Positions 12,001-15,000 of a DNA stretch of 64,000 nucleotides are shown here, in pieces. The position numbers are program-made. The stretch lies in assembly GCF_003334305.1 (NCBI RefSeq), contig NZ_QOWS01000006.1; one strand, 5' to 3'. Within the stretch, counting starts at the first letter, position 1; each line of letters starts with the position of its first letter. This stretch comes from Escherichia coli (GTDB lineage Bacteria > Pseudomonadota > Gammaproteobacteria > Enterobacterales > Enterobacteriaceae).

Positions 12001-15000
12001 CAGATCCGTATTGGCGATCGACTCGCCTATATCAGCGCGCTGGATGCCCAACCCGATAATGGCCTGCCGGTGCTAACCTATCACCATATTCTGCGCGATG
12101 AAGAAAACACCCGTTTTCGCCATACTTCGACGACCACCTCGGTACGCGCTTTCAATAACCAGATGGCCTGGCTGCGCGACAGGGGATACGCGACACTGAG
12201 CATGGCGCAGCTGGAAGGTTACGTGAAGAATAAGATCAATCTCCCTGCGCGAGCGGTGGTGATTACCTTTGATGATGGCCTCAAGTCGGTGAGCCGCTAT
12301 GCGTATCCTGTATTGAAACAATATGGCATGAAGGCGACGGCGTTTGTTGTTACCTCGCGCATCAAACGTCACCCGCAGAAGTGGAACCCAAAATCGCTGC
12401 AATTTATGAGCGTTTCTGAGCTTAACGAAATTCGCGATGTTTTTGATTTTCAGTCACATACCCATTTTTTGCATCGGGTGGATGGCTATCGCCGACCCAT
12501 ATTACTGAGCCGTAGTGAGCACAATATTCTGTTTGATTTTGCACGTTCACGCCGCGCTCTGGCGCAATTTAATCCGCATGTCTGGTATCTTTCGTATCCG
12601 TTTGGCGGATTTAATGACAAAGCCGTGAAGGCAGCAAACGATGCCGGATTTCACCTGGCGGTGACAACCATGAAAGGCAAAGTAAAACCGGGGGATAATC
12701 CGTTGTTACTAAAACGACTTTATATCTTAAGAACGGATTCGCTGGAGACGATGTCGCGGCTGGTGAGTAACCAGCCGCAGGGATAACAATCAAGCAACCT
12801 GTACCGGAATCGCTTTCGCGGTACGTTTCATTTCATTGTCGCCTTCAAAATAGGCGACATTGGGTCGCCAGGTGCGAGCTTCTTCATCTGGCATGGTAAC
12901 GAAGCTGGCGATGATGACAATATCGCCGACGCTGGCGCAGTGGGCCGCCGCACCGTTAACAGAAATAATTCTCGAACCGCGTTCTGCCGCGATGGCATAA
13001 GTGGAGAAACGCTTGCCGTTGGTGACATTCCAGATATCAATGGCTTCGTTTTCGAGAATACCGGCTGCGTCAAGGAAATCCTGGTCAATGGCGCAAGAAC
13101 CTTCATAGTGCAGGTCCGCATGAGTCACTTTCACGCGGTGGAGTTTGCCCTGCAGCATCGTGCGAATCATAACTTCTACCTTTCTACCCTGTCGTTAACG
13201 AAGCAGGCGATGCCTGCTTTGAGGAAATTCTCACGCAGTATTGCCCGATTTTTGTTTAGTGTCTACTCATCTGACGGCATTTACATCAGCAGTTTGCGTA
13301 CCGTGCCGAAGCGTGCCATGTAACGGCTGTAACCAATTGAAATTTCTCTGAACGCTGCTCGGTAAACACTAAAGAGGTGGCTGACGATGGCACGCCTTGA
13401 CTGGATACTGCCTTCACGCAAGACAACACGGAAGGCAGGGAAGATGGATGCACCGAGTACCACACCGCATGATGCAGTGTTTAAACAATTTTTAATGCAC
13501 GCGGAGACGGCTCGCGACTTTCTGGAGATACATTTGCCAGTGGAATTACGAGAACTTTGTGACCTCAACACGCTTCATTTAGAGTCGGGGAGTTTCATTG
13601 AAGAGAGCCTGAAAGGACACAGCACGGACGTGCTCTATTCCGTGCAAATGCAGGGCAATCCCGGTTATCTGCATGTTGTGATTGAACACCAAAGCAAGCC
13701 GGATAAGAAAATGGCCTTTCGCATGATGCGTTATTCTATTGCTGCCATGCACCGGCATCTGGAGGCGGATCACGATAAGCTGCCGCTGGTGGTGCCGATA
13801 CTGTTTTATCAGGGCGAGGCCACACCTTATCCGCTCTCAATGTGCTGGTTTGATATATTTTACTCGCCGGAGCTGGCACGACGCGTCTATAACAGTCCTT
13901 TCCCGCTGGTGGATATCACCATCACACCGGATGACGAAATCATGCAACATCGGCGGATTGCGATTCTCGAACTACTGCAAAAACATATTCGCCAGCGCGA
14001 CTTAATGTTATTGCTGGAGCAACTGGTCACGCTGATTGACGAAGGGTACACTAGCGGAAGTCAGTTAGTTGCCATGCAAAACTATATGCTGCAACGCGGT
14101 CATACTGAACAAGCGGATTTGTTTTATGGTGTGCTGAGAGACAGGGAAACGGGAGGGGAGTCTATGATGACGCTGGCGCAGTGGTTTGAAGAGAAAGGGA
14201 TTGAGAAGGGGATTCAGCAGGGAAGACAGGAGGAAAGGCAAGAATTCGCCCTGCGTCTTCTAAGTAAAGGAATGTCTCGGGAAGACGTTGCAGAGATGAC
14301 AAATTTATCTCTTGCTGAGATTGATAAGGTAATTAACCTTATTTAAGTTACCTGTGTTATGACAGATGACGTGGGGTAAATTAATAACTGGCGCCATCAG
14401 CCGTAGCGCCAGTTAAGTATTACGCCAGCTCGACCATTTTGTTGTCGATCAGGCGAGCATCGCCAAGCCAGGCGGCTACCAGAATTACTGCCCGTTTGCT
14501 GGTTTCAGAAACTTCCAGCAATGTGTCGGCATCGCGAATCTGAATATCATCGGCGCGGAAGCCTTTTTCATTCAGTTCTTGCCCCGCAATGGTAATAATT
14601 TCATCGAGATCCCGTTCCCCAGCCTGCAATTTGTCAGCAATCGAACTTAAAACTTTGTACAGACCAGGCGCAATTTTGCGTTGTTCCGCCGTCAGATAAC
14701 CGTTACGGGAACTTAGCGCAAGGCCATCTTTGGCGCGCATAATTGGCACACCGACAATCTCAATATCGAAGCCCATATCGGCAACCATTTTGCGGATCAG
14801 CGCCAGTTGCTGAAAGTCCTTTTCACCGAAGCAGGCGATGTCCGGCTGGACCAGGTTAAACAGCTTGCTGACGATAGTCGAAACGCCGCGAAAATGCCCC
14901 GGACGGCTCGCGCCTTCCAGCATGGTCGAAAGCCCGGGAACGTCAACGTAAGTATGGGTTTCAGTACCGTTCGGGTAGATCTCTTTTACCGAAGGGGCGA

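What the first reader, a model, noticed from the sequence alone, without database searches (positions are those of the whole stretch)
13444..14346. Rpn-family (YhgA-like, transposase_31) nuclease gene rpnC between panD and panC
This is the only gene in the window with mobile-element ancestry: a PD-(D/E)XK-type recombination-promoting nuclease. It sits alone between convergent and divergent pan genes with 273 bp of upstream spacer and a short C-terminal tail after a long Q/E-rich helix (GIQQGRQEERQEFALRLLSKGMSR...). Rpn proteins promote RecA-independent recombination, so their presence next to essential biosynthetic genes is worth noting.
Basis: partly seen in the sequence, partly recalled or inferred. 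Interest (0 to 1): 0.3.

Follow-up and report, generated by a model that had tools for sequence, protein, structure and literature searches.

The report
Known E. coli rpnC toxin–antitoxin gene
This is the ordinary, already characterised Escherichia coli gene rpnC (yadD), a DNA-cutting toxin whose own tail is also made separately as its antidote; it is present in almost every E. coli genome and nothing here goes beyond what was published in 2017 and 2023.

Summary
Window 13444..14346 (+) is a 300-aa ORF between panD and panC, with a 273-bp spacer upstream and 73 bp downstream. It matches Pfam Transposase_31 (E 5e-87) and NCBIfam Rpn family. RefSeq annotates the identical sequence as rpnC. 5,425 of 5,426 complete E. 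coli genomes have a match.

The gene is already known. Kingston 2017 showed that RpnC overexpression promotes RecA-independent recombination, toxicity and SOS, and analysed its panC-panD location. Zhong 2023 showed that rpn genes are genes-within-genes. The full-length RpnL is a toxic PD-(D/E)XK endonuclease. An internally translated RpnS is its antitoxin. Specificity depends on the number of 4-aa repeats.

All of these features are visible here:
- the RpnA catalytic residues are conserved;
- a Shine-Dalgarno sequence plus in-frame ATG ATG lies at 14152-14169;
- a 12-bp repeat (KGIE/KGIQ) lies at 14191-14222, and its copy number differs among ten alleles I compared;
- this strain has no separate downstream rpnC_Ss gene.

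There are no IS-like ends, so "mobile-element ancestry" rests mainly on the Pfam name.

Minor extras: a minority-allele upstream ATG at 13387, and low synonymous diversity just before the internal start.

Verdict: already known, low interest.

The parts
13444..14346 (+). rpnC (yadD) CDS, full-length product RpnC_L, 300 aa
   Evidence: ORF. RefSeq annotation of the identical sequence in FORC_069 and of the K-12 orthologue b0132. The ATG at 13444 is conserved in all 10 alleles compared.
13462..14064 (+). Transposase_31 (PF04754) domain, aa 7-207, containing the PD-(D/E)XK nuclease core
   Evidence: Pfam hmmscan E 5.4e-87, model positions 1-201 of 203. dN/dS is 0.04 among 9 alleles, which indicates strong purifying selection.
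13471..13938 (+). Residues equivalent to the mutationally tested RpnA residues: D10 (13471), D62 (13627), E81 (13684), Q83 (13690), R93 (13720), PDDE 162-165 (13927-13938)
   Evidence: MAFFT alignment of RpnC with K-12 RpnA and residue numbering. RpnA D11A, D63A, E82A and Q84K lose all phenotypes, and D165A is hyperactive (Kingston 2017).
14152..14160 (+). Shine-Dalgarno-like GGAGGGGAG for the internal translation start
   Evidence: Read directly from the sequence. Conserved as GGAGGGGAG or GGAGGGAAG in all 10 alleles.
14164..14346 (+). Nested gene rpnC_S (antitoxin), in frame with rpnC_L: 60 aa from M241 (14164) or 59 aa from M242 (14167). M242 aligns with RpnA M244, the proven RpnA_S start
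   Evidence: Alignment. PDB 7TH0 RpnA-S begins at MTIAER. SPA-tagged RpnC_S and a ribosome-profiling initiation signal in K-12 are reported in PMC10400941. dN is about 7 times higher than in the nuclease domain.
14191..14247 (+). Hypervariable dodecamer / four-amino-acid repeat tract (KGIE-KGIQ-QGRQ-EERQ-EF). This allele has two KGI(E/Q) units, the same number as K-12
   Evidence: TRF: period 12, 2.7 copies, 14191-14222. Ten alleles differ by 0 to 7 KGIE-type units and by RQEV/RQEE units, always in multiples of 12 nt. The function of repeat number is shown in PMC10400941 Fig. 4D.
14385..14415 (.). Perfect 10-bp inverted repeat (TAACTGGCGC / GCGCCAGTTA) in the 73-bp rpnC-panC spacer. It is a terminator-like hairpin shared by the convergent transcripts
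   Evidence: Conserved in all alleles. rpnC-panC is listed as a convergent excludon in MG1655 (PMC12288877).
13171..13443 (.). 273-bp panD-rpnC divergent intergenic region. It contains two promoter-like matches on the - strand (towards panD). The rpnC_L promoter was not located
   Evidence: The count of consensus matches is no higher than in shuffled sequence, so this is weak evidence.

Best explanation
The locus is the chromosomal E. coli gene rpnC, a two-products-from-one-frame toxin-antitoxin module. The full-length protein RpnC_L (300 aa) joins an N-terminal PD-(D/E)XK DNA endonuclease (Transposase_31 domain) to a C-terminal helical domain. A second, more abundant product, RpnC_S (59-60 aa), is translated in the same frame from an internal Shine-Dalgarno sequence and ATG at 14152-14169, from a shorter internal transcript. 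RpnC_S binds RpnC_L through the long first helix and blocks its DNA-damaging activity. That helix carries a strain-variable number of four-residue repeats (KGIE type, encoded by 12-bp repeats). Only an RpnC_S with the same repeat number as RpnC_L neutralises it. The likely physiological role is anti-phage defence through release of the nuclease. Promotion of RecA-independent recombination is a by-product of DNA cleavage. What is shown here: gene identity, domain, catalytic residues, the internal start signal, the repeats and their variation, and the contrast between purifying and diversifying selection. What is shown in the literature for K-12 RpnC: toxicity, SOS induction, a 2.9-fold rise in recombination, RpnC_S expression, and repeat-number specificity. 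What is inferred: that RpnC itself defends against phage (demonstrated only for the plasmid paralogue RpnP2), and how the nuclease is released.
For: Family and identity:
- Pfam PF04754, E 5.4e-87.
- TIGR01784, 296.9 bits against a cut-off of 52.1.
- 100% nucleotide identity to the annotated rpnC of FORC_069, and the same synteny (yadE-panD-rpnC-panC-panB) as K-12 b0132.
- The protein differs from K-12 RpnC by about 6 residues.

Nuclease: all RpnA residues whose mutation abolishes activity are conserved (D10, D62, E81, Q83, R93, PDDE). dN/dS is 0.04.

Nested antitoxin:
- GGAGGGGAG followed by in-frame ATG ATG is conserved in 10 alleles.
- M242 aligns with the RpnA_S start.
- Third-position diversity falls to 0-0.05 over 13894-14193, against 0.13-0.25 in codons 16-120. 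This is consistent with an embedded promoter and 5' UTR.

Repeats: a 12-bp tandem repeat is present, and repeat number varies among alleles. The divergence peak of the whole locus falls in 14201-14400.

Some strains carry an extra stand-alone rpnC_Ss gene downstream, as published.

Literature: PMC5350276 and PMC10400941.
Against: - Anti-phage activity has not been shown for RpnC itself.
- PADLOC-DB v2.0 gives no significant match.
- Kingston et al. found RpnC the weakest of the four active paralogues (2.9-fold recombination, 59% loss of viability, late SOS).
- Deleting rpnA-D did not change basal recombination.
- I could not locate the internal promoter by consensus scan; there was no + strand hit.
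- The predicted RpnC_S fold matched RpnA-S (7TH0) only weakly (rank 6, E 0.9) among generic HTH domains.
- RpnC_S and RpnA_S share no BLASTP-detectable similarity.
Confidence: 0.9

Rival explanations
1. rpnC is primarily a housekeeping or horizontal-transfer enzyme. On this view it is a recombination-promoting nuclease whose selected role is to help acquire foreign DNA by RecA-independent recombination, and the antitoxin is only a safety device.
For: Overexpression raises RecA-independent recombination 2.9-fold (PMC5350276). Zhong et al. allow that some Rpn proteins may have housekeeping roles. The gene is kept in 5,425 of 5,426 E. coli genomes with strong purifying selection on the nuclease domain, which is unusual for an accessory defence gene.
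Against: Deleting rpnA-D did not change basal recombinant frequency. Toxicity and recombination are not correlated. The hypervariable repeat tract and the raised dN in RpnC_S point to an arms race rather than housekeeping.
Confidence: 0.15
2. rpnC is, or recently was, the transposase of an insertion-sequence-like mobile element that inserted between panD and panC.
For: The Pfam and NCBIfam names ('putative transposase', and the 'ISNCY family transposase' model NF007418 at 328 bits, below its 583-bit cut-off). Kingston et al. inferred two independent insertions at the panC-panD site. Homologues occur in 4,836 of 72,556 plasmid records.
Against: No terminal inverted repeats or target-site duplication flank the gene. 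The only repeat pair that spans it is a 10-nt, 90% direct match, which is at chance level. Each genome has a single copy at a fixed site (median 1 place per genome). Zhong et al. found no defined ends and note that no autonomous transposase with this fold is known.
Confidence: 0.03
3. In this strain the gene makes a single product. The internal ATG ATG is just two methionine codons and the C-terminal region is only a domain of RpnC.
For: No expression data exist for this strain. No consensus promoter was found upstream of the internal start.
Against: The SD, the ATGs and about 270 nt upstream are nearly invariant at synonymous sites across alleles. K-12 RpnC_S, whose start region is identical, was detected by tagging and ribosome profiling.
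Confidence: 0.03

Closest known systems
E. coli K-12 RpnC (YadD, b0132, NP_414674.1)
   Same: Same locus (panD-rpnC-panC), same length (300 aa), same number of KGI(E/Q) repeats and the same internal start region. Nucleotide identity is 97.8% over codons 1-240 and 95.6% over codons 241-300.
   Different: About 6 amino-acid differences, 5 of them in the 60-aa RpnC_S part (EERQ against EVSQ, L against Q, T against A, S against P). This allele also has an upstream in-frame ATG at 13387 where K-12 has ATA.
E. coli RpnA (YhgA) / RpnA_S, crystal structure PDB 7TH0
   Same: 49% identity over 290 aa (tblastn). The catalytic residues are identical. The internal Met is at the equivalent position. RpnA has the best-studied biochemistry: a Mg-dependent, Ca-stimulated, non-specific endonuclease that RpnA_S blocks in vitro.
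   Different: The C-terminal (S) parts are not detectably similar by BLASTP. RpnA_S lacks the KGIE repeat expansion. The NCBIfam RpnA equivalog scores 314 bits against a 583-bit cut-off, so this is not RpnA.
Plasmid-encoded RpnP2_LS (ECOR13)
   Same: Same family and same gene-within-gene architecture. It is the only member with demonstrated anti-phage protection, against T-even phages and BASEL #40.
   Different: It is plasmid-borne and strongly toxic without its S protein. I did not compare its sequence here. Phage defence by RpnC is extrapolated from it.
Stand-alone RpnS-type genes (rpnC_Ss, ypaA/rpnE_Ss; DUF4351, PF14261)
   Same: Some E. coli strains carry a 67-77-aa RpnC_S paralogue between rpnC and panC, with its own repeats (FQKG, YQEA, RQEV).
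   Different: It is absent from this window, where the rpnC-panC spacer is only 73 bp.
EcoR124I / EcoR124II HsdS TAEL repeats
   Same: The number of four-residue repeats in a helix sets specificity. The analogy was drawn by Zhong et al..
   Different: In EcoR124 the repeats set DNA-target spacing in a type I restriction enzyme. In RpnC they set toxin-antitoxin pairing.

Membership tests
Rpn / YhgA-like family (Pfam PF04754 Transposase_31; NCBIfam TIGR01784; COG5464) | Significant full-length match to the family profile | tested here: met
   PF04754 E 5.4e-87, model positions 1-201 of 203. TIGR01784 296.9 bits against a cut-off of 52.1, positions 1-273 of 273.
Rpn / YhgA-like family | PD-(D/E)XK-type catalytic residues (RpnA D11, D63, E82, Q84, R94) and the PDDE motif | tested here: met
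   D10, D62, E81, Q83, R93 and PDDE162-165 align with the RpnA residues. The mutational data are from PMC5350276.
RpnC orthologue group | Location between panD and panC, and near-identity to K-12 b0132 | tested here: met
   Synteny yadE-panD-rpnC-panC-panB. About 98% amino-acid identity to K-12 RpnC.
RpnL/RpnS gene-within-gene toxin-antitoxin | In-frame internal start codon with a ribosome-binding site, about 50-60 codons before the stop | tested here: met
   GGAGGGGAG at 14152-14160, ATG at 14164 and 14167, conserved in 10 alleles, and M242 aligns with RpnA M244. This is sequence-level evidence only. Translation was shown for K-12 rpnC in PMC10400941.
RpnL/RpnS gene-within-gene toxin-antitoxin | Four-amino-acid (12-nt) repeats in the first helix of RpnS, with a number that varies among strains | tested here: met
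   TRF period 12 at 14191-14222. KGIE-type units number 0 to 7 and RQEV-type units are variable among 10 alleles. The repeats begin 10 residues after M242, within the published range of 8-20.
RpnL/RpnS gene-within-gene toxin-antitoxin | RpnS folds as a three-helix bundle that dimerises through a long first helix (RpnA_S, PDB 7TH0) | tested here: inconclusive
   The AF2 model of RpnC_S is all-helical but only moderately confident (pLDDT 74), from an alignment of 11 sequences. Foldseek against the PDB gives no hit at E<=0.001. 7TH0 ranks 6th (E 0.9, TMt 0.66, rmsd 8.1) among generic HTH domains.
RpnL/RpnS gene-within-gene toxin-antitoxin | RpnL is toxic or induces SOS, and the cognate RpnS neutralises it | not testable with these tools
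   Published for K-12 RpnC in the dinD-lacZ assay, including repeat-number specificity (PMC10400941 Fig. 4D). Toxicity was shown in PMC5350276.
Anti-phage defence system | Protects cells against phage, or is recognised by a defence-system model | tested here: inconclusive
   PADLOC-DB v2.0 gives no significant match (best E 0.006, to an HTH piece). Protection has been shown only for plasmid RpnP2.
Insertion sequence / autonomous transposon | Terminal inverted repeats and a target-site duplication flanking the gene, and multiple copies | tested here: not met
   No inverted-repeat pair spans the gene, and the only spanning direct repeat is 10 nt at 90%. There is one place per genome at the median. 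This agrees with PMC10400941.

The most novel reading that the evidence does not exclude
The rpnC nuclease may itself diversify its own neighbourhood. On this reading, RpnC_L-induced breaks drive expansion and contraction of the 12-bp repeats. They would also drive the unusually high synonymous divergence that starts at rpnC and runs through panC and panB (pS about 0.18-0.20, against 0.06 in panD on the other side). In addition, in about 8% of E. coli genomes, this one included, a point change creates a strong-SD upstream ATG (13387). That would add 19 residues to the toxin and could shift the toxin:antitoxin ratio. Zhong et al. already speculated about the repeat part. The effect on flanking genes and the extended isoform are untested.
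Probability: 0.08. Interest if true: 0.4.

Novelty: already known. Interest (0 to 1): 0.08.

Why it matters
This finding adds nothing new. The gene, its nuclease activity, its odd position inside the pan cluster, its internal antitoxin and its repeat-number specificity are all published (PMC5350276, PMC10400941). Its use is as a positive control: a reader working from raw sequence correctly spotted a gene-within-gene defence module and proposed the right test. Two questions remain open. One is whether chromosomal RpnC really defends against any phage. The other is what releases the nuclease. Neither can be addressed from this sequence.

Tried and rejected
- **PDB sequence search with full RpnC:** no hit at E<=1. 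With RpnC_S alone, the hits were only designed repeat proteins and generic HTH proteins. RpnA_S retrieves its own entry, 7TH0.
- **BLASTP of RpnC_S against RpnA_S:** no alignment.
- **AF2 plus Foldseek of RpnC_S:** inconclusive.
- **Sigma-70 consensus scan for the rpnC_L and internal rpnC_S promoters:** no + strand hits, and the total number of hits was no higher than in shuffles. Inspecting 14000-14160 by eye gave no convincing -35/-10 pair.
- **Rfam scan of 12500-15500:** only chance-level snoRNA-type matches with E>0.2.
- **PADLOC:** nothing significant.
- **Alternative start at 13387** (the mechanical 319-aa ORF): rejected as the general start, because 9 of 10 alleles have ATA or ACG there.
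- **Antisense ORFs inside rpnC** (40-96 aa): no supporting evidence, so I treated them as chance ORFs.
- **Phage records:** Rpn homologues appear in only 10 records, several of which are bacterial contigs. I found no partial hit covering only the C-terminal (RpnS-like) part.
- **Searches not run:** I did not run the genome contigs or metagenome scans, or the large protein searches. The distribution of rpnC at panC-panD in other enterics and the family phylogeny are already published, and the verdict would not change.

Full report
**1. Observation**

The window is E. coli chromosome. The stretch 13171-14419 is 100% identical to strain FORC_069, and 5,425 of 5,426 complete E. coli genomes contain a match.

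The + strand ORF ending at 14346 can be read from ATG 13387 (319 aa). The start annotated in RefSeq is ATG 13444 (300 aa), and this start is conserved in all ten alleles I compared.

panD lies at 12790..13170 (-) and panC at 14420..15271 (-). The quoted peptide is present.

The profile matches are unambiguous:
- Pfam Transposase_31, E 5.4e-87, over aa 7-207.
- NCBIfam TIGR01784 (Rpn family), 296.9 bits against a cut-off of 52.1.

The window holds no paralogue. The collinear FORC_069 annotation lists no transposase, integrase or prophage gene across the 64 kb. Collinearity was checked.

**2. What it is**

This is rpnC (formerly yadD, b0132).

Kingston et al. 2017 (PMC5350276) named the family. 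They showed that overexpressing RpnC raises RecA-independent recombination 2.9-fold, lowers viability of recA cells by 59%, and induces an SOS reporter late. They argued from 32 enterobacterial panCD segments that rpnC entered the panC-panD spacer twice independently. For RpnA they showed that D11, D63, E82 and Q84 are required for activity, and that the purified protein is a Mg-dependent, Ca-stimulated, non-specific endonuclease.

Zhong et al. 2023 (PMC10400941) showed that every K-12 rpn gene has an internal translation start and an internal transcription start. They also showed the following:
- The resulting small protein, RpnS, is the antitoxin of the toxic full-length RpnL.
- RpnS proteins vary among strains by four-amino-acid repeats in their first helix.
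- For RpnC specifically, adding one KGIE repeat to only one partner abolishes neutralisation, and adding it to both restores it.
- Some strains carry an extra rpnC_Ss gene downstream.
- A plasmid paralogue, RpnP2, protects against T-even phages.

**3. What the window sequence itself shows**

- **Nuclease domain.** Alignment with K-12 RpnA (49% identity) places D10, D62, E81, Q83, R93 and PDDE162-165 of RpnC on the functionally tested RpnA residues.
- **Internal start.** GGAGGGGAG at 14152-14160 is followed by in-frame ATG ATG at 14164-14169. M242 aligns with RpnA M244, the first residue of the crystallised RpnA-S (7TH0). RpnC_S is therefore 59-60 aa, encoded by 14164 or 14167 to 14346.
- **Repeats.** TRF finds a 12-bp repeat at 14191-14222, encoding KGIE-KGIQ.
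- **Variation among alleles.** I compared ten alleles: the window, K-12 and eight spread down the hit list. The KGIE-type unit occurs from 0 to 7 times, and an RQEV/RQEE unit also varies, always in multiples of 12 nt. This window has the K-12 repeat count.
- **Selection.** dN/dS is 0.04 in the nuclease domain and 0.32 in RpnC_S, with dN about sevenfold higher in RpnC_S. The divergence peak of the whole yadE-panB stretch falls in 14201-14400.
- **Extra antitoxin gene.** Four of the ten loci carry a 67-77-aa rpnC_Ss gene in an enlarged rpnC-panC spacer. This window does not.
- **Terminator.** The 73-bp spacer holds a perfect 10-bp-stem hairpin (14385-14415) shared by the convergent transcripts. 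rpnC-panC is listed as a convergent excludon in MG1655.

**4. Mechanism and rivals**

The best-supported account is the published one: a PD-(D/E)XK toxin held in check by its own separately translated C-terminal domain, with repeat number acting as a lock-and-key.

Phage defence is the probable role, but for RpnC it is inferred. It has been demonstrated only for RpnP2, and PADLOC has no matching model.

The housekeeping / horizontal-transfer reading keeps some weight. The gene is nearly universal in E. coli and its nuclease domain is strongly constrained.

The transposase reading is not supported. No terminal repeats or target duplication flank the gene, it sits as a single copy at a fixed site, and Zhong et al. 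reached the same conclusion.

Homologues are common on plasmids: 4,836 of 72,556 records, mostly conjugative. They are rare in phage records (10 records). This fits spread by hitch-hiking.

**5. Small things not in the papers, as far as I could see**

(a) This allele has ATG at 13387, preceded by AGAGGTGG, a strong Shine-Dalgarno sequence. It would add 19 residues in frame. The other nine alleles have ATA or ACG at that position. The exact 64-mer around it occurs in 463 of 5,426 genomes.

(b) Third-codon-position diversity among nine alleles drops to 0-0.05 over 13894-14193, with zero variable sites in 14074-14118. It is 0.13-0.25 in codons 16-120. This fits an internal promoter and 5' UTR embedded in the coding sequence. 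The stretch is long and the sample is small, so a recombination mosaic could equally explain it.

(c) Synonymous divergence is about 0.18-0.20 in rpnC and panC but 0.06 in panD. The alleles were chosen to span rpnC divergence, so this comparison is biased.

**6. Verdict**

The feature is already known in detail, so interest is low.

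Noticed in passing
window 13375-13443: In this allele an in-frame ATG at 13387 follows a strong Shine-Dalgarno-like AGAGGTGG. It would extend RpnC_L by 19 residues (MARLDWILPSRKTTRKAGK). Nine other alleles, K-12 included, have ATA or ACG at that codon. The exact 64-mer is shared by 463 of 5,426 complete genomes.
   Followed up: partly
window 13894-14193: Synonymous (third-position) diversity among nine rpnC alleles falls to 0-0.05, with no variable site at all in 14074-14118, against 0.13-0.25 in codons 16-120. The stretch ends at the internal start and abuts the most variable part of the locus. 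This is consistent with an embedded promoter and leader for rpnC_S, or with a recombination mosaic.
   Followed up: partly
window 12790-15900 (panD, rpnC, panC, panB): Among the same loci, pS is about 0.20 in panC and 0.18 in the rpnC nuclease domain, but 0.064 in panD. Mismatch density stays high into panB. This suggests a diversity boundary near the panD-rpnC spacer. The sample was chosen by rpnC divergence, so it is biased.
   Followed up: partly
L005:1774-2970 (E. coli YP3) and L004:2700-2924 (E. coli XJ34): In YP3, rpnC is frameshifted (a pseudogene) while the downstream stand-alone rpnC_Ss is intact, which leaves an orphan antitoxin. In XJ34, rpnC_Ss is annotated as a partial pseudogene, but the full ORF MEIKTRRETRQTLAQ... 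is open.
   Followed up: partly
L006:2765-2968 (E. coli strain 111): About 225 bp of extra DNA lies between the rpnC-panC terminator hairpin and the panC stop. It contains a long imperfect palindrome (…CCCCAGTCACTTACTTATGTAAGCTCCTGGGGATT…) that resembles an ERIC/IRU element. That resemblance is from memory and was not tested.
   Followed up: no
plasmid and phage collections: tblastn with RpnC finds homologues in 4,836 of 72,556 plasmid records: 3,047 conjugative, mostly Escherichia, Klebsiella and Salmonella, and mostly below 60% identity. Only 10 'phage' records have a hit. Among them are Sodalis phage phiSG1 (annotated as transposase) and two Leptospira phages.
   Followed up: no
window 16190-17536 (-): The mechanical ORF for the yadC-type fimbrial adhesin is 448 aa from a TTG start. 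RefSeq annotates 424 aa (1,275 nt) in the closely similar FORC_069 region. This is only a start-codon ambiguity.
   Followed up: no
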